Shown here: piece after piece, positions 2,712 through 22,379 of the stretch | How the letters are laid out: each line of letters begins with the position of its first letter | Position numbering within the stretch: the first letter of the stretch is position 1 | NCBI GenBank assembly: GCA_964016885.1 | Contig: CAXHJY010001172.1 | Span: forward strand, 1 to 22,379 | Source: Eledone cirrhosa | Taxonomy: Eukaryota | Direction of reading: 5' to 3' | DNA: 22,379 nucleotides | Position numbers and translations under genes: made by a program | The notes under the pieces: model-generated | Seen by the model: only the letters and a program-made list of their open reading frames with translations | The model's database searches: none | Told to the model about the DNA's origin: nothing

Positions 2712-2812
2712 CATCATCATCATCATCAGGTTTAGCGTCCGTGTTCCACGCTTGCATGGGTTTGGACGGGGGTTTTCCCACTTGAGGCAAGAGTGGTTGT
2801 CTTGCTCGCATA

Positions 2813-3037
2813 GGACTGTCTGGCGGGTTTTCTACAGTTGGATGCCCTTCCTAACACCAACCACATTTACAGTGTGGGGCTGGGAGGTTTTTACCGTGTT
2901 GCCTACACGGCCACATTACAGCGTGGACTGTCTGGCGGGTTTTCTACAGCTGGATGCCCTTCCTAACTCCAACCACATTTACAGTGTGGGGCTGGGAGGT
3001 TTTTACCGTGTTGCCTACGCGGCCACATTTACAGCGT
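2813..3037. repeat. Tandem duplication (~112 bp x2) inside the copy A 3' UTR
   Basis: 2813-2924 is nearly identical to 2925-3037, bounded by GGACTGT. The segment is single-copy in the other three 3' UTRs. Confidence 0.9.
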
Positions 3038-3214
3038 GGACTGTGTGTTTTTTTGTCGTGACACCTACACGATCTCATTTGTTTCGGCCTGGATGTTGTG
3101 GGACCAACATAACTGTACATTGAAAGGGGGCGGTGTGGATGGGGTGGAGGTGGTGGGACGGGGGGGTGTTTTGATAGAGATGCCTACTGACTGAAGTAGG
3201 TTTTTACTTTGTAT

Positions 3215-6200
3215 TTAGGTAAGGCGGGTCTTCTCTATTACTGAGTACCGCGAAAGGTCTCGGTCCAGTGACATTGTCTTGGAGAGGTGTAAGCGTGTGA
3301 GGTCGGAATTTATCAGCTCGTCCCATGTTTTTCTGGGTCTGCCTACTCCGTGGCTACCGTCTATCTTTATTGCCCTGCACTTTGTTATACAGCTGTCGTC
3401 TTTCATGCGCATCACGTGACCGTACCAACGTAGCCTTCTCTCGAGTAAACAACATCTGATCCCTCTTATTTCTAATTTTTTCCTTAGTTCGTTTATGCTT
3501 TGCCGTTCACGTATATTACTATTGCACATCCAGCGGAGCATGCAAGCTTCGTTCCTCTCTAGTCTGCGTATATCCTCTGCACACAATGCCCAGGTCTCAC
3601 TGCCATGCAGCATTGCTGTTCGTATGCAGGCATCGTATAACCTGCCTTTCATTTTTAGGAGAACCTCTAGCGGCTAATAGTGGTATAAGCTCTCTGAACT
3701 TTTTCCATCCAGTTCTGACTCTAGCTACTGTACTTTCAGAGCACCCTCCCCCACTGCTGATTTTGTCACCCAGGTAACGGAAGCTGTCCACTATTTCTAT
3801 AGAACCCTCTGCGCAGTTGGAGCTAGTATTTGTGGGCACTTGCTGCTACTTATTGCACCAGAGCACCGGCCACATGTAAAATCTATGTTCTTAGTTAGCT
3901 TACCTGTGATCCCACTACATCTTTTATGCACCCATACCTTGCATTTGGGACATAAAATGGAGTTTCTACCTACGCCTTTCCTACACACTGAGCATGGCCA
4001 TTTCCCAGATGGGACTGCCGCCATATTTTCTTTCCTACAAACTAGAACTTTTGTCTTAGCCAGGTTAATTTTAAGGCCTTTTGATTCTAGGCCGTGCTTC
4101 CATGTTTGGAATTTCTTCTCTAGTTCGGTCATTGATTCAGCTATGAGCGTTAGATCATCTGCGTATAGGAGTTCCCATGGGCAGCCGGTCTTGAACTCCT
4201 CTGTTATAGCCTGAAGGGCAATAATAAATAGTAGGGGCCTAAGAACAGAGCCCTGATGGACACCAACTTTTACGCTAAACTCTTCACTATATTCGTTGTT
4301 AATTCTAACCTTACTGACTGTTTCTTTATACATGGCTTGTATAGCTCTCACAAGCCATTCGTCAACACCTAGTTTTCTAAGAGACCACCAGATAATGGAA
4401 CGGGGGACTCTGTCGAAGGCTTTCTCCAAGTCGACGAAAGCTAAGTATAGGGGTTTACTTTTAGCTAGGTACTTCTCCTGTAGTTGTCGTACAATGAAAA
4501 GAGCGTCTGTGGTACTTTTGCCTGACACAAACCCGAACTGCATTTCATCTAGGTCAATCTCTCTCTGATTAGTTGCGCTATTACTTTTTCCGTGACCTTC
4601 ATGACCTGGTCGATTAATTTAATGCCTCTATAGTTACTCCTATCTAGGGCATCTCCTTTTCCCTTATAGCAGTTAACGATGATGCTGCTACGTCAGTCCT
4701 TCAGAACAACCCCATTCTGTACGACTTGGTTAACTATCCGGGTGACCATGGTGTGTCCCACCGAACCAGATGCCTTCAGCATCTCAGCAACTATTTCCGA
4801 AGGCCCAGCCGCCTTACCCGTCTTCATATCTTTGATTGCCTTGCTTATTGTACTACCCTGGACTAACACTGCTGGTCCCTCTATTGGGTCGATGTGGGGG
4901 AGACTGTCTTTCTCCCATTTGTTCTCCTCATTTAGAAGCCTTTCGTAGTGACACTTCCAAGCTACCTTCTTATCAGCGTCGGTGATGGCAAGTATGCCAT
5001 CATCGTTAAGCACACACTTCTCCCCGACAATATCACGGTTTTCCTTGACACATTGCCTGGCAATCCTGAACACCTCACGTTTTTGGTCCTCACGTTGTAG
5101 AACATGCTTGAACTTTCTTTCCTCTGCTTCCCTTCTTGCGAAGTACACTTGTCTCCTAGCTTCCCTCCTGACTACCTGATAGTCTTCTCTACTTCCCCCA
5201 TCCCGCCATGCTTTCCAAGTCTGCTTTTTGGCCTTAATTGACTCCTCCACCTTACTGTTCCACCACCATGTTACTCTCCTCCTACCTACAGGCCTGCTCC
5301 AGCCACAGACTTCGTCTGCCGCCGTCAGCAGGTTTGCTCTCAGGAATTCCCACTGTTCCTCTATATTATACGTCTCTAATTGCTCTTCCTTACTGTCGAA
5401 AGCGTCAAGTAATATGCTTTGAAATTTATTTCTGACTATGGGGTCCTTTATCTTCCATATTTTTCTCCTGAGGATAGTCCTCTTCCGCTGTCTAGTACGT
5501 CTCGTCCTGACTATGAAGTCGCTAATTATCAGTCTATGTTGGGAGGTGAATTCTTCATGGGGGAGGGATTTAGTGTTAACAACAGACACTCTGTCACGTC
5601 TTCTGGTAAGGATATAATCTACCTGGCTTGTGTGTTCCCCCGATCTATAGGTGATCAAGTGATTGTCTCGTTTTTTGAAGTTAGTGTTACAGATAGTTAA
5701 GTTATTTGCGTCGCAGAATTCCAGGATTCTGGAGCCTTCCTCATTTCTAGTACCGAACCCATAGCCTCCATGGATTCCGTCATAGCCGTCACAATGCTGT
5801 CCGTGACCATTTAGGTCGCCTGCAATAACTATATAGTCACTGTCGGTTATTTGGGAGGTAGCGAGCATCAGTGTCTCGTAGAATCTGTCTTTTATAGCAC
5901 CGGGCAGTCCGGATTGTGGTGCGTACGCAGATATTACTGTCACCGTAGTTTTATTGAGGACAAGTCTTATTTTAATTATTCTGTCGTTCACTCTATTTAC
6001 GTCTATTATCTTATCTGCCCACTTTTCTGCTACCATGATTCCTATCCCACCCAACCCATTGTCATTTCCCACCCAGAAAAGCTTATAGCATCGTTCTTTA
6101 CCCACGATGAATCTAGCCGACCCTCCCCTCCACTTGGTCTCTTGAATACAACAAACATCGACCTCCTTACGTTCAAGCATTTCTACAACCTCGTTAGAGC

Positions 6201-6450
6201 GACCCTTTAAGGTGCCTACATTCATGGTACCAACTCTGAAGTTTTGGATTGCGTTTGGAGGGTGGGAGGGGTGGGGCGCGGGGGGTGATGGGGTTATGTT
6301 AGCCATCCTGGGCCGAAACAAGGCGGAGTGCTTGCATTCTCGTCCACGAGGTGAATTTGTCTTTATCTTTGGCATTGTCGCTGAGCGTCCACATTTTTCT
6401 CTCTTCAACTCTCCTGAATTCCGTAGTCCATCCATCATATCGAAAAGCAA
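3215..6450 (-). pseudogene. Disrupted RTE ORF: APE endonuclease, reverse transcriptase with PHD-type finger insert, RTE C-terminus
   Basis: APE motifs TMNVGTL, CCIQETKW, AYAP, GDLNG, QVDY. RT motifs QFGF, FVDLEKAFD, GVHQGSVL, YADD, FRYLG. RTE C-terminal motifs RLRWYGHV and GRPRKTW. Compared with copy B: TGG>TGA stop at 4693-4695 and frameshifts near 4558, 3830 and 3660. Confidence 0.93.
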
Positions 6451-6542
6451 CCAGTTAGGCGATAGTATGGGCCTCTGACTTATGATTGGTCCACGTAATA
6501 ATGGTGGTGCGTGGGGGAGGGTGGGAGGGATGATGTGTTGTT

Positions 6543-7405
6543 AGCGAGAATGTAAGGTTTAAGATAAGATCGCCGTATTTTGGGCATAATTTAACAAACG
6601 AAAATACAAGATTTGTTTTTAAGAAAATACGATAGAGAAAATGCGGTGATAGGGAAAATATGATTTTTAGAGAAAAAATATGATATAGAATGATAGAATG
6701 GTGAAAATATGATATAGTGTGAAATTAGGACATAGAACAGTCATTGAAATGAATGGATTCGAATGGAGAGAAGAATCGAGAAAAATATATTTGGACGTTA
6801 CTTTATACCGCAAGAAGAGCCATCCCAGAAATAGCGAGTTGGCGATTGTGATTAATTTTGGTAGGGATTTATCTTATATGTATAGAGAGGGATGGGGGGG
6901 GGGGGGAACCAGCATGGTGTATGGGTAGGGGGTAGAAGATGGGATGGAGCAGAGGTTAAGAGTTTAAATAGGTACTAGAAGTTTTGCGTAGAACTTAGCA
7001 AGTTTAACAAAATATATTTAAAGGAATATATAATAGTGATTTGTTTTTGTTATGAAAATACGACAGAATATGAAAATATGACTGAATTAAGCGAGAATGT
7101 AAGGTTTAAGATAAGATCGCCGTATTTTGGGCATAATTTAACAATAAACGAAAATACAAGATTTGTTTTGTTTAAGAAAATACGATAGAGAAAATGCGGT
7201 GATAGGGAAAATATGATTTTTAGAGAAAAAATATGATATAGAATGATAGAATGGTGAAAATATGATATAGTGTGAAATTAGGACATAGAACAGTCATTGA
7301 AATGAATGGATTCGAATGGAGAGAAGAATCGAGAAAAATATATTTGGACGTTACTTTATACCGCAAGAAGAGCCATCCCAGAAATAGCAAGTTGGCGATT
7401 GTGAT

Positions 7406-7407
<2 letters not shown>
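6543..7407. repeat. ~315-bp direct repeat (6543-6854 and 7090-7407) upstream of the RTE ORF
   Basis: Both units run agcgagaatgtaagg...ggcgattgtgatta. The near-identical short ORFs at 6719 and 7272 reflect this duplication. Confidence 0.92.
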
Positions 7408-7436
<29 letters not shown>

Positions 7437-7457
7437 GTATATATATATGTATATATG

Positions 7458-7487
<30 letters not shown>
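7408..7487. repeat. Short (TA)n/TATG array between the divergent RTE copies A and B
   Basis: Directly visible. Confidence 0.95.
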
Positions 7488-7488
<1 letters not shown>

Positions 7489-9103
7489 GCCATCACCGAC
7501 GCTGATAAGAAGGTAGCTTCGAAGTGTCACTATGAAAGGCTACTAAATGAGGAAAATAAATGGGAGAAAGACAGTCTCCCCCATAACGACCCAATAGAGG
7601 GACCAGCAGTGTTAGTCGAGGGGAGTATGATAAGTAAGGCAATCAAGGATATGAAGACAGGTAAGGCTGCTGGGCCTTCGGAAATTGTTGCTGAGATGCT
7701 GAAGGCATCTGGCACGGTGGGACACACCATGGTCACCCGCATAGTTAACCAAGTCGTACAGAATGGGGTTGTTCCGAAGGACTGGCATAGCAGCATCATC
7801 GTTAACTGTTATAAGGGTAAAGGAGACGCCCTAGATAGGAGTAACTATAGAGGCATTAAATTAATCGACCAGGTCATGAAGGTCACGGAAAAAGTAATAG
7901 CGCAACTAATCAGAGAGAGAATTGACCTAGATGAAATGCAGTTCGGGTTTGTGTCAGGCAAAAGCACCACAGACGCTCTTTTCATAGTACAACAACTACA
8001 GGAGAAGTACCTAGCTAAAGGTAAACCCCTCTACTTAGCTTTTGTCGACCTGGAGAAAGCCTTCGACAGAGTCCCCCGCTCCATTATCTGGTGGGCTCTT
8101 AGAAAACTAGGCGTTGACGAATGGCTTGTGAGGGCTATACAAGCCATGTATAAAGAAACAGTCAGCAAGGTTAGAATTAACAACGAATATAGTGAAGAGT
8201 TTAGCGTAAAAGTTGGCGTCCATCAGGGCTCTGTTCTCAGCCCCCTACTATTTATTATTGCCCTTCAGGCTATAACAGAAGAGTTCAAGACAGGCTGCCC
8301 ATGGGAACTCCTATACGCAGACGACCTGACACTCATAGCGGAATCAATGGCCGAGCTAGAGAAGAAATTCCAAACATGGAAGCACGGCCTAGAGTCAAAA
8401 GGACTTAAAATTAACCTGGCTAAGACCAAAGTTCTAGTTTGTAAGAAAGAAAACAAGGCGGCGGTCCCTTCTGGGAAATGGTCGTGCTCGGTGTGTAGGA
8501 AAGGCGTAGGTAGAAACTCCATTTTATGTCCTAAATGCAAAGTATGGGTGCATAAAAGATGTAGTGGGATCACAGGTAAGCTAACTAAGAACATAGATTT
8601 TACATGTGGCCGGTGTTCTGGTGCAATAAGTAGCAGCAAGTGCCCACAAAATACTAGCTCTTTCAATTGCGCAGAGGGTTCTATAGAAATAGTGGACAGC
8701 TTCCGTTACCTGGGCGATAAAATCAGCAGTGGAGGAGGGTGCTCTGAAAGTACTGTAGCTAGAGTCAGAACTGGTTGGAAAAAGTTCAGAGAGCTTATAC
8801 CACTATTAGCTGCTATAGGGTTCTCCCTAAAAATGAAAGGCAGGTTGTACGATGCCTGCATACGAACAGCAATGTTGCATGGCAGTGAGACCTGGGCATT
8901 GTGTGCAGAGGATATACGCAGACTAGAGAGGAACGAAGCTTGCATGCTCCGCTGTATGTGTAACAGTAATATACGTGAACGGCAAAGCATAAACGAACTA
9001 AGGAAAAAATTAGAGATAAGAGGGATCAGATGTTGTTTACTCGAGAGAAGGCTACGTTGGTATGGATACGTGATGCGCATGAAAGTCGATAGCTGTATAA
9101 CAA
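7488..9103 (+). mobile_element. RTE copy B: 5'-truncated, uninterrupted RT reading frame, 3' end replaced by the Penelope-like element
   Basis: Open frame from AITDADKK (7489) to KVDSCIT (9102) with FVDLEKAFD, QGSVLSPLLF, YADD and FRYLG. Inverted homolog of ~3383-4990. The N-terminal Y/I stretch and last ~22 aa of the 7417-9171 ORF are read-through into flanking sequence. Confidence 0.93.
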
Positions 9104-9190
9104 TGTTTGAATATGTATCAATGTTTGAATATGTATTGGTATGTCTCTCGGCTGAAAGGGAGGTCATATAACTGTCCATGCATTAATAAA

Positions 9191-9240
9191 TTGCTCCGAA
9201 GAATCCAAACCTCGGTTTGGAGGAAACAGCTGTAAGCACA
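9191..9240 (+). ncRNA. Minimal type I hammerhead ribozyme (variant core)
   Basis: Stem I TGCT (9192-9195) / AGCA (9235-9238). Core CCGAAGA (9196-9202; canonical CUGANGA). Stem II TCCAAAC-ctcg-GTTTGGA. GAAA at 9223-9226. Palindromic stem III CAGCTG. GUA cleavage triplet ends at 9234. Such motifs are established in Penelope pLTRs. Confidence 0.78.
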
Positions 9241-9487
9241 ATAATGTTTTGAACAGTTCTTTGATTCTTATATTTCATATAACTGCTCTGTAAATCATCT
9301 GATGTTTTTACATTGAGCTACTTAACTTACTGGTAATAAGGTAGTAATACAATACTGCCTACCACTATTTAGGGTGTGTGTAAAATACTTACAACTGCTT
9401 AAGGTCTTGTGTTTACATAACCATAAATAGTATAACTAATACTATTAACTGCTCCATATCGTTGAGCTGACATATAATATTGCCAAT

Positions 9488-11944
9488 ATGCTAATCAAAG
9501 ACCAACTCCCCCTGTCAACCAAGAACATACCAATACCATCCAGGAATACATATGAGAAATTGCTGATCAACAGTGTAAATTCATTTATCAATAGAGTGAG
9601 ATGGAGGACATTCCATTATGATAGAAACAAATCTAACAACTTGAATAATACTAACAATTTTGACTCCTTCGGCTTTAAAACCTTTAAAAGCCCCCCTCAT
9701 AACACTCTTCTTAACTCCTTTGAAAATGACCTAGTGAAACTAGTTAAGAACATTAAATACAATAAGCACCATATTAAAAGCAACACCTTCTTAAACAAAC
9801 TTAACACTTCTATTAATGGATTCAAAACTAGTAATAAAATTATTGTACACGCAGATAAAACTAATAACATATACAGCCTAGATTATAATACTTATAGAAA
9901 GTTTATATATAATGAACTACATAAAAGCTACAAAAAAACCACCTTGAAAAACTTAGAAGATATTAATGTAGAGGGTTATAATATAGTGTCTAAACTAGGA
10001 CTACAGAGGCATACACAACCTTTCACTCCGAACCCCCATAGATTCTCTCTGAAGGACCATAAGGAGAACTTCATCAGCAACCCCACGATAAGACTTATCT
10101 GCCCTTCCAAGTCCGACATTGGTATTATCAGCAAGAAGATTTTGGATAAAATCATCCCACAAATTAAACACAAGATACACCTTAAACAATGGGGAAATAC
10201 GGGTGAAGTCATTGAATGGTTCAAGGATATCAAGAATAATAAGAACAAAAAATTTATTCAATTTGATATCAATTCGTACTACACCTCTATTTCCCCTATC
10301 CTATTAAATAAGGCACTTATCATGGCCATGACCAATAGCGACCTGACTAGAGCCCAGGTTGATGTCATCCTTGCGGCCCGTAAAACCATAATTACCTTTG
10401 AGGACCAACTATGGACACGCAAGGATACGCACAACAACTTCGACATAACCATGGGATCTAGTGACTCGGCGCAGGTCACTGATTTGGTCGGCCTATACCT
10501 CCTCAATGAAATCCATAAGGACCTCCCTTACCTCAACGGTGGTTTGTACCGCGATGATGCACTTCTACTTATAGAATATAAAAAATTTAATATAGAAAGA
10601 ACTAGAAAACAACTGCATAAGACATTCAAAAACTTTAACCTTAGTATCACCATGGACAAAAACACTAAAAATGTTAACTTCCTAGACGCCACACTATACC
10701 TAGACTCAAAAATATATACACCTTTCCATAAGCCTAATGAGAAACTTATTTACGTAGATACCAAGTCTAATCACCCTAGATCAATATTAAACTCTATCTC
10801 TAAGGGGGTGTCCAATAGAATCTCTAGTCTGTCCTATGACGCAAACATATTTAGCAAAAACTCACAATATTACAATCAAGCATTAGCTAGCTCCGGCCAT
10901 AATATAGAAATTGAGTTCCTACCTAAGAAAACACATAGCTACAACATCATCTCGCACAACATGTCCATGAGGAAATCTAATAGGAATAGCAACCACAAGT
11001 ACACCAAAGCGGAGTGTGCCACCAGAAGTAACCATTACCATGGAAACTACTGTGGGGCCTTAGGAGGCAGCAACACACCAAACACTAAAAGCAAAAATAG
11101 AAGAAGAAATAATACATTTTTCAACCCTCCTTTCAACCTTAATGTCTCCACCAACATACCTAGGGCTTTCTTCTCACTACTAGATAAAAACTTCCCTCTA
11201 GGACACAAGTACCACAACCTCTTAAACAAAAACACCATTAAAATCTCATACTCTACGACGCCTAACTTAGCATACCACATAGCTAGCAGCAATAATAGTA
11301 AAATTAGTTCTTACTTCCAACAAACAAAATCACAACGGGATGCAAACCCTCTAAATACCACTGTAGCAAGCAACCATAGCAACGGCAGTAACAATAGAAA
11401 TAACACTAGTATAAGTAATAACACCAGGGTTGTCAACCCGAACACCCAAAATCCTATATCTACCACACAGACTTCCACATTGCATTATAACCAGCGGACT
11501 AACGCACAGGATAATTGTAACTGTAGAGCTAATAGAACCTGCCCTTTAGATAAAAAATGCCTAACCAAGGATGTCATATACTCATGCACCGTCACGACTA
11601 ATAACTCTTCAGAAACCTATGTAGGCTCCACTTCTAACTGCTTCAAAATCAGATATAATTCGCACATCCACTCGTTCAAAAAGCACAGCCTAGCCAACTA
11701 CACCTCACTTTCTAGCTACATACACTATCTAAAATCTAAAAATAAACCATACACACTCAAATGGGAAGTGATAGGCAGCGCGACCTCGTACAAACCACCT
11801 AATAAATTCTGTAACCTCTGTATACTAGAGAGACACAATATTATCTTCTCCAACCGTAACCTACTTCACAAAAAATCTGAGGTGTTTGCAACTTGCCAGC
11901 ACCGCCTCAGACATTCCTTCCAAAACTTTAAGCCCAATATATAG
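9488..11944 (+). CDS. Penelope-like polyprotein: reverse transcriptase plus C-terminal GIY-YIG endonuclease (818 aa, intact)
   Basis: N-terminal KNIPIPS, ADKTNNIY, RLICPSKSDIG. RT motifs FDINSYYTSI, FDITMGSSD, LYRDD, NFLD. Thumb YVDTKSNHP. Cys motif CNCRANRTCPLDKKC. GIY-YIG VIY...YVGST...FKIRYNSH. C-terminal CNLCILE...CQH. Confidence 0.92.
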   Translation: MLIKDQLPLSTKNIPIPSRNTYEKLLINSVNSFINRVRWRTFHYDRNKSNNLNNTNNFDSFGFKTFKSPPHNTLLNSFENDLVKLVKNIKYNKHHIKSNTFLNKLNTSINGFKTSNKIIVHADKTNNIYSLDYNTYRKFIYNELHKSYKKTTLKNLEDINVEGYNIVSKLGLQRHTQPFTPNPHRFSLKDHKENFISNPTIRLICPSKSDIGIISKKILDKIIPQIKHKIHLKQWGNTGEVIEWFKDIKNNKNKKFIQFDINSYYTSISPILLNKALIMAMTNSDLTRAQVDVILAARKTIITFEDQLWTRKDTHNNFDITMGSSDSAQVTDLVGLYLLNEIHKDLPYLNGGLYRDDALLLIEYKKFNIERTRKQLHKTFKNFNLSITMDKNTKNVNFLDATLYLDSKIYTPFHKPNEKLIYVDTKSNHPRSILNSISKGVSNRISSLSYDANIFSKNSQYYNQALASSGHNIEIEFLPKKTHSYNIISHNMSMRKSNRNSNHKYTKAECATRSNHYHGNYCGALGGSNTPNTKSKNRRRNNTFFNPPFNLNVSTNIPRAFFSLLDKNFPLGHKYHNLLNKNTIKISYSTTPNLAYHIASSNNSKISSYFQQTKSQRDANPLNTTVASNHSNGSNNRNNTSISNNTRVVNPNTQNPISTTQTSTLHYNQRTNAQDNCNCRANRTCPLDKKCLTKDVIYSCTVTTNNSSETYVGSTSNCFKIRYNSHIHSFKKHSLANYTSLSSYIHYLKSKNKPYTLKWEVIGSATSYKPPNKFCNLCILERHNIIFSNRNLLHKKSEVFATCQHRLRHSFQNFKPNI

Positions 11945-13221
11945 CAAGGTCGGACTGGAACCTAACACCACATCTAGCATCAAACACCAGAGACACACCT
12001 TATACTACATACCCAACACTAACTGATCCATTATAACACAAACAACGACATCCCTCTGGAACCCTTCGCAGGGAGAATACCCATTTATACCTCTACGGCA
12101 GGCGTGACAACATCCACCCACTTGAACGGCACTACACTGCTCTAAGGGTAATTTGAGCATGAATTGATCGGTCGGATAGTGTTGTGCAGAGGAAACACCT
12201 TCCTTAGACGGATGTAAAATGATTTAATCGAGTAGCGCTGTTGACCAGTAGGACCGGACTGCTGAGCGCAGTGAGTGAATGCATTGCAACTGCCGGGCGG
12301 GTTGTACGTATATGGATGATCTGACGGTCAGAGAGGGGTCGCGAGGACCGCGGATTGACCTTTGGCCGGCCTGGGGATGATTTTCTTTCGACATCAAATG
12401 TAGCAAGCGATGACCCAGATCTTACCAGAGATCATTGGGTCCTGAAGCAAGCCTGCAATCACCGCGCCTGGTCATATGAGCAGACTACAACCACAAAGAT
12501 CATTAACTTAGAATCCTCGCTCATCATCTATAATTTCCATTTGTGGCACCTTAAGATGGGTTAACCCACCATAATAATATGACCACCTTCAGCATAACTT
12601 AATTAAACTACTCTATAGTTAATACACTTTATGCTTTAAAAATCTCTCTTGGAAGATGCGCATCACCATAGAATTTAGAGTCTATATTGGGACACATTTT
12701 AATGGCTAGATATAGAAACCCCAGAGTTACCTCCCCGCACGCATTAACTCCCCTATGCCACACACACACTTCCGGGCGGTATTCAATGGCGTTTCTAGAA
12801 ACGTAACAACCTCCTGTATCGAACTAAAGAACACCAGACTACGATCTCTAACTGGATTGTCATGGATTACGTGAAGGGCATATAATCGAAAAATACACTC
12901 CCCTGACCATGAAAATGCCGAAGTACATGAAATACTTGACATCCCTGCGCTGTGCATCTCCATTACTTATAACACTTTTAATGCTTGCACTATCTTTAAT
13001 GCTTATAATATTTCTCCACACACAGACTATATCAATCATAAAGAATTTGCCACCAGATCTACCAACCTAACACTCTTATTTACCTACCTAAGTGCCTCTA
13101 CCACACAAATCTCTCTGCCAAACTATATAAACAAGACGCGCATGCGTGCCACACATATAACATTTGCACTATATAACCGCTTATCTTCATGTATTTTAAC
13201 CTATATTTTTGATTTTTGATT

Positions 13222-13831
13222 CATCATCATCATCAACGTTTAACGTCCGTGTTCCACGCTTGCATGGGTTTGGACGGGGGTAGTCCCACTTGAGGCAAGA
13301 GTGATTGTCTTGCTCGCATAGGACTGTCTGGCAGGTTTTCTACAGTTGGATGCCCTTCCTAACACCAACCACATTTACAGTGTGGGTCTGGGAGGTTTTT
13401 ACCGTGTTGCCTACACGGCCACATTACAGCGTGGACTGTGTGTTTTTTTGTCGTGACACCTACACGATCTCATTTGTTTCGGCCTGGATGGCGTGGCACC
13501 AACATAACTTTACATAGAGCGGGGTGGTGTGGATGGGGTGGGGGTGGTGGCGGGACGGGGTGTATTTTGTTAGAGATGCCTACTGGCAAGGCGGGTCTTC
13601 TCTGTTACTGAGTACCGCCAAAGGTCTCGGTCCAGTGACATTGTCTTGGAGAGGTGTAAGTGTGTGAGGTCGGAGTTTATCAGCTCGTCCCAGGTTTTTC
13701 TAGGTCTGCCTATTCCGTGGCTACCGTCTATCTTTATTGCCCTGCACTTTGTTATACAGCTATCGACTTTCATGCGCATCACGTGTCCATACCAACGTAG
13801 CCCTCCCTCGAGTAAACAACATCTGATCCCT
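13222..13831 (-). mobile_element. RTE copy C: 3'-terminal ~610 bp with (GAT)n tail
   Basis: Encodes GIRCCLL...RWYGHVMR...GRPRKTW and has the full 3' UTR. A ~29-bp deletion at ~13587 removes the normal stop codon. Confidence 0.92.
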
Positions 13832-13864
13832 GTGTGATCCCGTTGATGATGATGATGATGATGA

Positions 13865-16036
<2,172 letters not shown>

Positions 16037-16210
16037 CATGGACACACTAGAAGAGGAAGACCAAGGTTAACATATGTTGATGCCCTAAGGACAGACACTG
16101 GTCTATTGGAGATGCAGGATATGGCAGCGATAATGAGGGACAGAGACCGCTGGAGAGAACTCGTCCATGGATCTCGGGAATTTTACGCGCCTTAGATAGA
16201 TAGATAGATA
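16037..16210 (+). mobile_element. 3' fragment of a second RTE-like LINE family with (TAGA)n tail
   Basis: Encodes [22 protein letters not shown]...[11 protein letters not shown]...* (RTE-type GRP...DR..WR C-terminus). The stop TAG at 16193-16195 runs directly into tagatagata. Confidence 0.8.
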
Positions 16211-16251
16211 CATATATATATATACATATATACATACATATATATACATAT

Positions 16252-16302
<51 letters not shown>

Positions 16303-16312
16303 CATATACATA

Positions 16313-16346
<34 letters not shown>

Positions 16347-16361
16347 CATATACATATATAC

Positions 16362-16412
<51 letters not shown>

Positions 16413-16420
16413 CATATACA

Positions 16421-16756
16421 TGGCTTAGTGGTTAGAGCATTGGCCTTGCAATCGAAAGGTTGTGAGTTCAATTCGCAGACCGGGTGATGTGTTGTTTCCT
16501 TGAGCAAGACACTTTATTTCACATTGCTCCAGTTTACTCAGCTGTAGAAATGAGATGATAGGGACTGCGGTCCCTATCATTCCACTGCAAAGTGGTCGTG
16601 GAGGCGCCACGGCAAAAAAGCACCCAGCACTCACTGTAAATGAGGTTGGTGTTAGGAAGGGCATCCAGCTGTAGAAATCAAGCCAAAATCAGTTCCCGTC
16701 CCACCCTTGCAAGCAAGGAAAAAGCGGACGTAAAATGAAATGATGAAATGATGATG

Positions 16757-16758
<2 letters not shown>
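16421..16758 (+). mobile_element. tRNA-derived SINE with CORE-like segment and RTE-derived 3' tail
   Basis: A box TGGCTTAGTGG (16421-16431), B-box-like GAGTTCAATTC (16464-16474), CORE-like ccttgagcaagacactt. The tail shares cactgtaaatg.ggttggtgttaggaagggcatcca.ctgtagaaa and cgtcc...ggacg with the RTE 3' UTR and ends in (GAT)n. Confidence 0.88.
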
Positions 16759-16827
<69 letters not shown>

Positions 16828-16920
16828 CATATATACATATATATATACATATATATATACATATATATATACATATATATATACATATATATATACATAT
16901 ATATATACATATATATATAC

Positions 16921-16985
<65 letters not shown>

Positions 16986-16986
16986 C

Positions 16987-17017
<31 letters not shown>

Positions 17018-17098
17018 CATATATATACATATACATATATATACATATACATACATATACATACATATACATATACATATACATATATATACATATAC

Positions 17099-17129
<31 letters not shown>

Positions 17130-17162
17130 CATATATATATACATACATATATATATATATAC

Positions 17163-17219
<57 letters not shown>

Positions 17220-17224
17220 TATAC

Positions 17225-17287
<63 letters not shown>

Positions 17288-17344
17288 CATATACATATAT
17301 ATATATATACATATATATATACATATATATATATATACATATAC

Positions 17345-17391
<47 letters not shown>

Positions 17392-17398
17392 CATATAC

Positions 17399-17445
<47 letters not shown>

Positions 17446-17487
17446 CATATATATATATACATATATATATATACATATATAGATACA

Positions 17488-17519
<32 letters not shown>

Positions 17520-17527
17520 GATACATA

Positions 17528-17559
<32 letters not shown>

Positions 17560-17567
17560 GATACATA

Positions 17568-17599
<32 letters not shown>

Positions 17600-17632
17600 C
17601 ATATACATATATATATATACATATATATATAC

Positions 17633-17697
<65 letters not shown>

Positions 17698-17698
17698 C

Positions 17699-17761
<63 letters not shown>

Positions 17762-17832
17762 CATATATATATACATATATACATACATATATACATATAT
17801 ATATACATATATATATACATATATATATATAT

Positions 17833-17863
<31 letters not shown>

Positions 17864-18001
17864 TACATATATGCATATATATATACATATATACATATAT
17901 ATATATACATATATATATACATATATACATATATATATACATATATATATACATATATATATATATGTATATATATATGTATATATATATATATGTATAT
18001 G

Positions 18002-18064
<63 letters not shown>

Positions 18065-18069
18065 GTATA

Positions 18070-18126
<57 letters not shown>

Positions 18127-18159
18127 GTATATATATATATATGTATGTATATATATATG

Positions 18160-18206
<47 letters not shown>

Positions 18207-18287
18207 GTATATGTATATATATGTATATGTATATGTATATGTATGTATATGTATGTATATGTATATATATGTATATGTATATATATG

Positions 18288-18318
<31 letters not shown>

Positions 18319-18331
18319 GTATATATATATG

Positions 18332-18382
<51 letters not shown>

Positions 18383-18475
18383 GTATATATATATGTATAT
18401 ATATATGTATATATATATGTATATATATATGTATATATATATGTATATATATATGTATATATATATGTATATATG

Positions 18476-18544
<69 letters not shown>
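16759..18544. repeat. Central (TA)n microsatellite; polarity flips from TACA to TATG at ~17960
   Basis: Last C at 17952; the G run starts at 17967. Confidence 0.97.
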
Positions 18545-18546
<2 letters not shown>

Positions 18547-18882
18547 CATCATCATTTCATCATTTCATTTTACGTCCGCTTTTTCCTTGCTTGCAAGGGT
18601 GGGACGGGAACTGATTTTGGCTTGATTTCTACAGCTGGATGCCCTTCCTAACACCAACCTCATTTACAGTGAGTGCTGGGTGCTTTTTTGCCGTGGCGCC
18701 TCCACGACCACTTTGCAGTGGAATGATAGGGACCGCAGTCCCTATCATCTCATTTCTACAGCTGAGTAAACTGGAGCAATGTGAAATAAAGTGTCTTGCT
18801 CAAGGAAACAACACATCACCCGGTCTGCGAATTGAACTCACAACCTTTCGATTGCAAGGCCAATGCTCTAACCACTAAGCCA
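18545..18882 (-). mobile_element. SINE, inverted copy of 16421-16758
   Basis: Reverse complement with no differences seen by eye; the 79-aa spurious ORFs in both copies are identical. Confidence 0.88.
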
Positions 18883-18890
18883 TGTATATG

Positions 18891-18939
<49 letters not shown>

Positions 18940-18954
18940 GTATATATGTATATG

Positions 18955-18988
<34 letters not shown>

Positions 18989-18996
18989 TGTATATG

Positions 18997-19047
<51 letters not shown>

Positions 19048-19088
19048 ATATGTATATATATGTATGTATATATGTATATATATATATG

Positions 19089-19262
19089 TATCTATCTATC
19101 TATCTAAGGCGCGTAAAATTCCCGAGATCCATGGACGAGTTCTCTCCAGCGGTCTCTGTCCCTCATTATCGCTGCCATATCCTGCATCTCCAATAGACCA
19201 GTGTCTGTCCTTAGGGCATCAACATATGTTAACCTTGGTCTTCCTCTTCTAGTGTGTCCATG
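19089..19262 (-). mobile_element. Second-family RTE-like 3' fragment, inverted copy of 16037-16210
   Basis: Same peptide and (TAGA)n tail on the minus strand. Confidence 0.8.
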
Positions 19263-21337
<2,075 letters not shown>

Positions 21338-22379
21338 CATCATCATCATCATCATCAACGTTTAACGTCCGTGTTCCACGCTTGCATGGGTTTGGACGGG
21401 GGTAGTCCCACTTGAGGCAAGAGTGATTGTCTTGCTCGCATAGGACTGTCTGGCAGGTTTTCTACAGTTGGATGCCCTTCCTAACACCAACCACATTTAC
21501 AGTGTGGGTCTGGGAGGTTTTACCGTGTTGCCTACACGGCCACATTACAGCGTGGACTGTGTGTTTTTTTGTCGTGACACCTACACGATCTCATTTGTTT
21601 CGGCCTCGATGGCGCGGCACCAACATAACCCTACATAGAACGGGGTGGTGTGGATGGGGTGGGGGCGGGGGCGGCGGGACGGGGTGCACCTTGTTAGAGA
21701 TGCCCACCGGCCGGAGCAGGTCCCACTATACATTTAGGCAAGGCGGGTCCTCCCTGCTACTGAGTACCGCCAAAGGTCTCGGTCCAGTGACATTGTCTTG
21801 GAGAGGTGCAAGTGTGTGATGTCGGAGTCCATCAGCTCGTCCCAGGTCTTCCCAGGTCTGCCCATTCCGTGACTACCGTCCATCTCTACTGCCCTGCACT
21901 TTGTTATACAGCCATCGACCCTCATGCGCATCACGTGTCCATACCAACGTAGCCCTCCCTCGAGTAAACAACATCTGATCCCTCCTATCTCCAATTCCCT
22001 CCTTAGCTCGTTTATGCCTCGCCGTTCACGCACATTACTGTTACACATCCAGCGGAGCATGCAAGCCTCGTTCCTCCCCAGTCTGCGTACATCCTCTGCA
22101 CACAATGCCCAGGTCCCACTGCCGTGCAGCACTGCTGTTCGCATGCAGGCATCGCACAACCTGCCCTTCATCCTTAGTGAGAACCCTCCAGCAGCCAATA
22201 GTGGTATAAGCTCTCTGAACCCCCTCCAACCAGTTCCGACTCCAGCCACAGTACCTTCAGAGCACCCCCCCCCCCCCACTGCTGATCCTATCGCCCAGGT
22301 AACGGAAGCTGTCCACCACCTCTACAGAACCCTCTGCGCAATTGAAAGAGCCAGTAGTTTGTGGGCACCTGCTGCCACT
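21338..22379 (-). mobile_element. RTE copy D (3' part, runs off the window), A-to-G hypermutated
   Basis: Same 3' UTR, tail and C-terminal ORF as copies A, B and C, with dense T>C changes on + from ~21615 to the window end. Confidence 0.93.

What the first reader, a model, noticed from the sequence alone, without database searches (positions are those of the whole stretch)
21615..22379. ADAR-like A-to-G hyper-edited LINE copy fixed in DNA
Seen: against sister copies A, B and C, copy D has roughly 60 or more T>C changes on + (A>G on the RTE sense strand) in ~760 bp by manual count, and only a handful of other substitutions. Examples: aactttttcc>aaccccctcc, ctatttctat>ccacctctac, tctagctac>tccagccac. 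Amino-acid changes are almost all A>G type: ESTVARVRTGWKKF>EGTVAGVGTGWRGF, GSETW>GSGTW, Y>C, I>V/M, K>R. Many sites are sense UAG or AA contexts, and the A directly 3' of a G is usually spared. Established: this is the ADAR neighbour preference, and coleoid cephalopods edit RNA heavily. Inference: a hyper-edited (inosine-rich) RTE transcript was reverse-transcribed and integrated, writing RNA editing into the genome and inactivating the copy, an ADAR analogue of APOBEC hypermutation. Sister copies agree on A and conserved residues are broken, so D is the derived state.
Basis: partly seen in the sequence, partly recalled or inferred. Interest (0 to 1): 0.92.

Follow-up and report, generated by a model that had tools for sequence, protein, structure and literature searches.

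The report
RNA editing fossilised in octopus DNA
A jumping-gene copy in an octopus genome, and several more found elsewhere in it, carry dense A-to-G changes with the fingerprint of the RNA-editing enzyme ADAR, which suggests edited RNA was copied back into DNA and that normally temporary RNA edits can become permanent mutations.

Summary
Confirmed. LINE copy D differs from its closest sisters by 75 A>G on the sense strand and no other substitution. A after 5' G is spared (5 of 55) and UAG is hot (13 of 16). D is not alone: genome searches gave 8 more hyper-edited copies, 7 on chromosome-scale contigs; 697 of 753 pooled private substitutions are A>G. Three copies match one unedited locus: edits fall inside its RNA hairpins (39 of 108 A) and never outside (0 of 75). 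In another locus the edited strand flips at an inversion, so editing came before reverse transcription. Two routes appear. D and E keep their last 270 nt unedited. Seven others are edited almost to the tail and lie upstream of a second retroposon, X. The host is an octopod with ADAR genes. Not shown: raw reads for D, which ends a 22-kb unplaced contig; population fixation; a defence role (3 in about 14,050 copies at one site). Known from avian retroviruses; no paper on genomic LINE copies found in 10 searches. This scan noted a similar L1 copy in another genome.

The parts
21347..22379 (-). Copy D: 3' 1.03 kb of a young RTE-type LINE (end of ORF, 3' UTR, (GAT)n tail), cut by the contig end
21630..22376 (-). 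Hyper-edited tract: 75 A>G of 241 A, ADAR-like context, no other substitution
21347..21629 (-). Unedited 3' end: last 270 nt of the element plus tail; copy E's last edit lies 271 nt from its end
22265..22268 (-). 4-nt lengthening of a G run that an edit at 22272 made continuous; the only difference that is not A>G
21734..22321 (-). Open frame in D (195 aa, stop kept); 33 amino-acid changes from 49 edits in 170 codons
13225..13831 (-). Copy C: shortened here to 0.6 kb; its first 30 nt carry two D-type G (13803, 13806) that are A in the twin contig C797
13841..21360 (.). 7.5-kb inverted duplication running from D's tail to the C breakpoint; non-microsatellite parts of the arms identical
2721..6842 (-). 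Copy A: longer, older sister with endonuclease domain; unedited control on the same strand as D
7496..9106 (+). Copy B: sister with RT and PHD domains, inverted to D and 12.8 kb away; unedited control

Best explanation
D is a LINE insertion made from an RNA that ADAR had hyper-edited. Steps: (1) an RTE transcript became double-stranded over most of its length (inferred for D, partner not found; shown for hairpins in another family of copies); (2) ADAR turned about a third of its A into inosine (inferred from spectrum and context); (3) the LINE reverse transcriptase put C opposite inosine, so the new copy reads G (established chemistry); (4) the copy integrated in a (TA)n tract with the normal tail (seen). 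D and E were probably copied from the RTE's own 3' end, whose last 270 nt were shielded or had to stay intact (inferred, two copies). Seven other copies are edited almost to the tail and probably travelled as passengers in longer RNAs ending in a second retroposon, X (inferred from position).
For: Spectrum 75:0 and context. Independent copy E on C7: 264 A>G against about 40 other changes over 2.55 kb; 34 edits shared with D, 22 only in E, 33 only in D. Copies G, J, K, M, N, O, P: 16-91 A>G each; pooled over 9 copies 697 of 753 private substitutions, 5' G 51/362 against U 205/345, UAG 84/107. Unedited locus on C3 against its copies on C13, C22 and C403: unique flank 10 A>G/0 other and 13/0, RTE piece 28-41 A>G/1 other, X 1-2 of 144 A; 39 of 108 A edited inside predicted hairpins, 0 of 75 outside, p=6e-11. 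Locus L069: antisense RTE piece with 15 A>G on the X strand, and the adjoining inverted piece with 13 T>C. ADAR-type deaminase matches at 4 genomic places; one exon is 95% identical to Octopus vulgaris ADAR2.
Against: No read-level confirmation: the 4 runs listed hold 0.04-0.11 of D's words, none of the listed contig pieces matches D's haplotype, and at several edited sites all contig depth in X2-X4 reads the unedited base; these may be another individual, and contigs cannot show absence. D ends a rearranged 22-kb unplaced contig, and no chromosomal counterpart of its flank was among 40 scored of 3294 candidates. No duplex partner is identified for D; the element has no internal inverted repeat, and intermolecular duplexes are reported to be rarely edited (PMC13445718, abstract). 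3' G makes up 33% of pooled and 43% of D's edited sites, above the 20-25% given for octopus (PMC5625713, passages). G is followed by only the first 84 nt of X. The searches forced edits at UAG/AAG sites, which biases discovery. Human L1 RNA was not found edited by ADAR1 (PMC5224506, passages).
Confidence: 0.88

Rival explanations
1. Assembly or sequencing artefact: base-calling decay at the contig end, or polishing with edited RNA reads, wrote G into these loci.
For: D lies at the end of a small unplaced contig with a 7.5-kb palindrome. No run confirms D. RNA polishing would also give one-strand, ADAR-context, hairpin-limited changes.
Against: The last 300 nt of the contig show 29 A>G and no other substitution. 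Copy A on the same strand is clean. Seven edited copies sit on chromosome-scale contigs. The edited strand flips at an inversion junction in L069, which in-place polishing would not easily give. Two D-type G recur at the C breakpoint and are absent from C797. H and I share one 18-nt edited patch on different chromosomes.
Confidence: 0.05
2. Adenine was deaminated in DNA, not RNA: on the cDNA of the RNA:DNA hybrid, or on single-stranded hairpin DNA during integration or repair.
For: Hairpin restriction would also fit folded single-stranded DNA. ADAR activity on hybrids is recalled, not checked here.
Against: Editing of first-strand cDNA would read T>C on the sense strand; D, E and the seven others read A>G, and one antisense control search in the RT region gave 0 hits (low power). 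J's inverted neighbour and the flanks of E show no such changes.
Confidence: 0.04
3. Reverse-transcriptase error, for example dCTP put opposite A under dTTP shortage, or adenine-directed mutagenesis as in diversity-generating retroelements.
For: It would also give one-strand A>G in single retrocopies; runs of A are heavily changed (AAA 137/221).
Against: It does not explain the 5' G depletion, the UAG preference or the stop of edits at hairpin borders (0 of 75 outside). DGR-type mutagenesis gives A>N (recalled); D has only A>G.
Confidence: 0.02
4. D belongs to an ordinary G-rich subfamily.
For: H and I show that an edited patch can be shared by two copies.
Against: Two searches inside D's span found only D plus differently edited copies (2 and 5 hits) against 14,050 unedited matches at the second site.
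Confidence: 0.01

Closest known systems
A-to-G hyper-edited avian retroviruses RAV-1 and avian leukosis virus (Felder 1994; Hajjar and Linial 1995), seen as cited in PMC8586724 (passages; originals not read)
   Same: ADAR-linked A-to-G clusters in a reverse-transcribing element.
   Different: Those are exogenous retroviruses; here it is non-LTR retroposons at many places in a host genome assembly, with passenger host repeats.
APOBEC DNA editing of LTR retrotransposons (Knisbacher and Levanon, PMC4866542, passages)
   Same: A single copy instantly hypermutated during retrotransposition, strand-biased, found by comparing subfamily members.
   Different: G>A on the sense strand from C>U in cDNA; LTR elements only; the passages seen report invertebrates as negative. 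Here A>G, made at the RNA level, in LINE and SINE pieces of an invertebrate.
Hyper-edited RNA reads in metazoa (Porath et al., PMC5625713, passages)
   Same: Dense A>G clusters in repeats, 5' G depletion, link to dsRNA; octopus has an exceptionally high rate.
   Different: Those are transient RNA reads; these are in the genome assembly. 3' G share is higher here (33%) than given for octopus (20-25%).
ADAR1 restriction of human L1 (Orecchini et al., PMC5224506, passages)
   Same: ADAR meets LINE RNA.
   Different: No editing was found in more than 2.5 kb of L1 RNA and restriction was editing-independent; the authors left rare editing open.
5' and 3' transduction and twin priming by LINE machinery (recalled, no call)
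   Same: Flanking RNA is carried along; a 5' part is inverted with near-adjacent breakpoints (L069).
   Different: Here the carried RNA is hyper-edited, so the edits mark which strand was the RNA.

Membership tests
ADAR hyper-editing product | Only A>G, on one strand, in dense clusters | tested here: met
   75:0 in D; 697 of 753 in 9 copies
ADAR hyper-editing product | 5' G depleted, 5' U/A preferred | tested here: met
   D 5/55, p=2.5e-5; pooled G 0.14, C 0.28, A 0.57, U 0.59; criterion from PMC8586724 and PMC5625713 passages
ADAR hyper-editing product | 3' neighbour preference as reported for octopus (A enriched, G weak) | tested here: inconclusive
   Pooled rates G 0.52, A 0.45, U 0.32, C 0.30; G share 33% against 20-25% in PMC5625713; sequence composition differs and searches forced UAG sites
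ADAR hyper-editing product | Edits confined to double-stranded RNA (copies of the C3 locus) | tested here: met
   39/108 A in hairpins, 0/75 outside
ADAR hyper-editing product | Double-stranded partner for D itself | tested here: inconclusive
   No internal inverted repeat; D's source locus unknown
ADAR hyper-editing product | ADAR gene in the host | tested here: met
   PF02137 over cut-off at C6, C1 (two places) and C25; C6 exon 95% identical to Octopus vulgaris ADAR2
ADAR hyper-editing product | Matching edits in RNA; loss without ADAR | not testable with these tools
   No RNA holder listed
Non-LTR retrotransposon (LINE), RTE-type | AP endonuclease and RT in the family ORF; short-repeat 3' tail; 5' truncation | tested here: met
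   PF03372/PF14529 in A, PF00078 and PHD in B; (GAT)n tail in D and 29 sisters; truncated copies
Non-LTR retrotransposon (LINE), RTE-type | Placement in the RTE clade by RT phylogeny | not tested
Non-LTR retrotransposon (LINE), RTE-type | Target-site duplication around D | not testable with these tools
   5' end cut by the contig end; E sits inside a microsatellite of the same type on both sides
APOBEC-edited retroelement | G>A clusters on the sense strand | tested here: not met
   6 G>A of 753 pooled substitutions
Diversity-generating retroelement mutagenesis | A changed to any base (recalled) | tested here: not met
   A>G 697, A>T 7, A>C 4

The most novel reading that the evidence does not exclude
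In octopus, ADAR hyper-editing is a recurring germline mutagen. LINE machinery copies edited RNA into DNA by two routes, one through an abundant non-coding retroposon (X, at least 12,412 copies) that drags edited neighbours along. This rewrites LINE, SINE, hairpin and (TA)n sequence at perhaps hundreds of loci, can repeat over successive rounds, turns (TA)n into TG-containing microsatellite, and can seed edited patches into lineages that keep jumping (H and I).
Probability: 0.45. Interest if true: 0.93.

Novelty: new variant of a known kind. Interest (0 to 1): 0.82.

Why it matters
A-to-I editing is treated as non-heritable, and the genome screen I read for edited retroelements sought APOBEC G>A in LTR elements and used invertebrates as a negative control. 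These copies suggest an RNA-to-DNA route for editing in an animal known for extreme editing. Each copy is a single-molecule record of editing in the cell where it integrated, presumably germline. They make several questions testable from sequence alone: how often edited RNA is retrotransposed, which part of a LINE RNA must stay unedited (the shared 270-nt border), and whether editing shaped octopus microsatellites. They also warn that such copies look 10-25% diverged while being very young.

Tried and rejected
Run search: 4 runs, small shares, no RNA holder listed. Laying them showed only the family and could neither confirm nor exclude D. Search for D's chromosomal allele: one junction search found only the unplaced twin C797, which ends before D's position; a flank search scored 40 of 3294 candidates without a full match. 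C797's long copy C as E's direct source: rejected, 35 other substitutions remain. RT-region search found only E. Antisense control gave 0 hits; weak, and L069 shows antisense-edited pieces exist. Rfam on X: only low-complexity hits below gathering scores; a ribozyme in X was considered by eye and not established. X as an LTR pair: disfavoured, the two X copies around K and P differ by 3-5% while the downstream X of M, N and P are 99.6% alike. General A>G bias upstream of X: not seen (106 A>G, 100 T>C in 27 kb from 40 loci), so most X copies carry no edited passenger. One T>A run of 5 was dropped as an alignment artefact. G-rich microsatellite beside X (18 of 28 upstream, 17 of 29 downstream) is not counted as evidence, since a (TATG)n tail or target preference explains it too. 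Homologue search of the RT gave no useful names. Paper searches listed no report of ADAR-edited LINE copies in genomes; the library lacks most subscription papers, Carmi 2011 was not held, and no supplements were read. No further copies edited close to the 270-nt border were collected, so that border rests on two copies.

Full report
Observation. The window is the whole 22,379-bp unplaced contig C1199 of a 3.0-Gb genome. D (21347-22379, minus) is the 3' end of a LINE whose sisters carry endonuclease, RT and PHD domains. Against three chromosomal sisters D has 75 A>G on the sense strand and no other substitution; all 29 sisters fetched give 74-78 A>G. Edits cover 75 of 241 A between 21630 and 22376. 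A after G is spared (5/55, p=2.5e-5), A before G is favoured (32/68), UAG is 13/16. This is the 5' rule given for ADAR in PMC8586724 and PMC5625713 (passages). The last 270 nt are untouched. The frame stays open with 33 amino-acid changes in 170 codons.

Is D alone? Pattern searches requiring G at two hot sites found more. One search gave D and E. E (C7:81238181-81240731) is 2.55 kb, with 264 A>G against about 40 other changes, the same context, a normal tail, and the same microsatellite type on both sides. It shares 34 edits with D and differs at 55; 28 shared are expected from context alone, so it is a separate event. One search gave 5 hits: D, E, G (91 A>G of 183 A) and two copies, H and I, that share one 18-nt edited patch. 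The unedited form of that site has 14,050 matches. One search gave only E. One search, in the 3' UTR, gave 6 hits and all 6 are hyper-edited (J, K, M, N, O, P). Pooled over the 9 copies, 697 of 753 private substitutions are A>G. Seven of the 9 lie on chromosome-scale contigs. An antisense control gave 0 hits.

Evidence for an RNA step. M (C13), N (C22) and P (C403) match one unedited locus on C3. They differ from it almost only by A>G, also in non-LINE sequence and in (TA)n. The non-LINE pieces fold into long hairpins, and edits stop at their borders: 39 of 108 A inside, 0 of 75 outside. M, N and P share an upstream X copy that the C3 locus lacks, so C3 may be a sibling and not the direct parent. 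In L069, one of 30 X loci taken in positional order, an antisense RTE piece has 15 A>G on the X strand, and the adjoining inverted piece has 13 T>C with near-adjacent breakpoints. That fits editing first, then reverse transcription with a 5' inversion (twin priming, recalled).

Two routes (inferred). D and E have their last edit 270 and 271 nt from the element's end and no X nearby. G, J, K, M, N, O and P are edited to within about 50 nt of the slice end, and all 7 have X downstream on the same strand; none of the 29 unedited sister loci does. The chance of a same-strand exact X match within 4 kb is 0.8% per locus; M, N and P count once, J's X is 3.5 kb away across pure microsatellite, and G has only 84 nt of X. 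My reading: the LINE can copy its own RNA only while its 3' end is intact or covered, and RNA edited to the end survives only as a passenger. The 3' UTR search selected for 3' edits, but G came from the ORF search. In 40 more X loci, 2 had A>G clusters on the X strand (one upstream, one downstream) and none had clusters of the other transitions; the bulk spectrum was unbiased. So about 3 of 70 X loci show it.

Host. Deaminase-domain matches lie at four places; one exon is 95% identical to Octopus vulgaris ADAR2. Octopus has an exceptionally high hyper-editing rate in RNA (PMC5625713, passages).

Against. D itself is unconfirmed by reads. The four runs found hold at most 0.11 of its words, and at several edited sites all contig depth in X2-X4 reads the unedited base; they may be other animals. 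C1199 is rearranged relative to its twin C797, which ends before D's position. In D's favour, two D-type G recur at the rearrangement breakpoint in copy C and are A in C797, and the contig's last 300 nt show no error-like changes. D's duplex partner is unknown; inverted LINE neighbours are common here, and intramolecular pairing is the usual source (PMC13445718, abstract). The 3' G share is above that reported for octopus. Survivors are rare, so a defence role is neither shown nor excluded.

Known and new. ADAR-linked A-to-G hyper-editing is reported in avian retroviruses (as cited in PMC8586724). Genome screens found APOBEC G>A in LTR elements and nothing in invertebrates (PMC4866542, passages). 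Trace surveys saw A>G excess in RNA traces, not DNA traces (PMC2873906, abstract and passages). Human L1 RNA was not found edited (PMC5224506, passages). Ten searches listed no paper on ADAR-edited LINE copies in a genome; the library is incomplete and Carmi 2011 was not held. An unchecked note of this scan describes a similar L1 copy in another genome; I did not test it.

Verdict. The feature is real in the assembly and recurrent. ADAR-edited RNA copied into DNA by LINE machinery: 0.88. It is a new variant of a known kind; interest 0.82. The wider reading, editing as a recurring germline mutagen at many loci, has probability about 0.45.

Noticed in passing
window 13841-21360 and G000:C797:19401-34613: C797 is a 99.7% twin of window 2727-13831, but there copy C is 2.55 kb and unedited. 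In the window its 5' part is replaced by an inverted duplication that starts at D's tail. It looks like a fold-back in (TA)n with template switches, in vivo or in the library.
   Followed up: partly
L048:5585-5602 region (C1:352866645) and L049 (C3:118957597): Two otherwise unedited copies, about 2% apart, share an identical 18-nt patch of 6 A>G: an edited patch apparently inherited by a small lineage.
   Followed up: partly
L051:4601-5205 minus (element X): A 600-nt non-coding retroposon with 12,412 exact 31-mer matches. Its 3' part reads like a C2H2 finger remnant and its end resembles the end of a zinc-finger LINE upstream in L066 (by eye). Often in tandem and in (TATG)n.
   Followed up: partly
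L125 (C1:19540626-19548625), 2339-2435: A SINE 1.6 kb upstream of X with a run of A>G on the X strand (16 in the 270 nt shown); a smaller cluster of 5 lies downstream of an X array in L121. Editing fossils are not limited to this LINE.
   Followed up: partly
L086 against L052, L053, L055: P's edits in the RTE piece are nearly nested in M's (16 of 16) and N's (15 of 16), which may mean cumulative editing over successive rounds rather than fully independent events. The (TA)n tracts gain G: A/(A+G) 0.79 to 0.62.
   Followed up: partly
window 9449-11944: An 831-aa open frame that looks like a Penelope-type element (RT plus GIY-YIG-like end, by recall); Pfam gave no family.
   Followed up: no
L053:5640-5920: A 290-nt near-perfect palindrome sits directly 5' of copy N, in place of part of the carried sequence.
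   Followed up: no
C7:81238181 and C797:32466: E and the long copy C have 5' truncation points within about 12 nt of each other although E is not derived from that copy.
   Followed up: no
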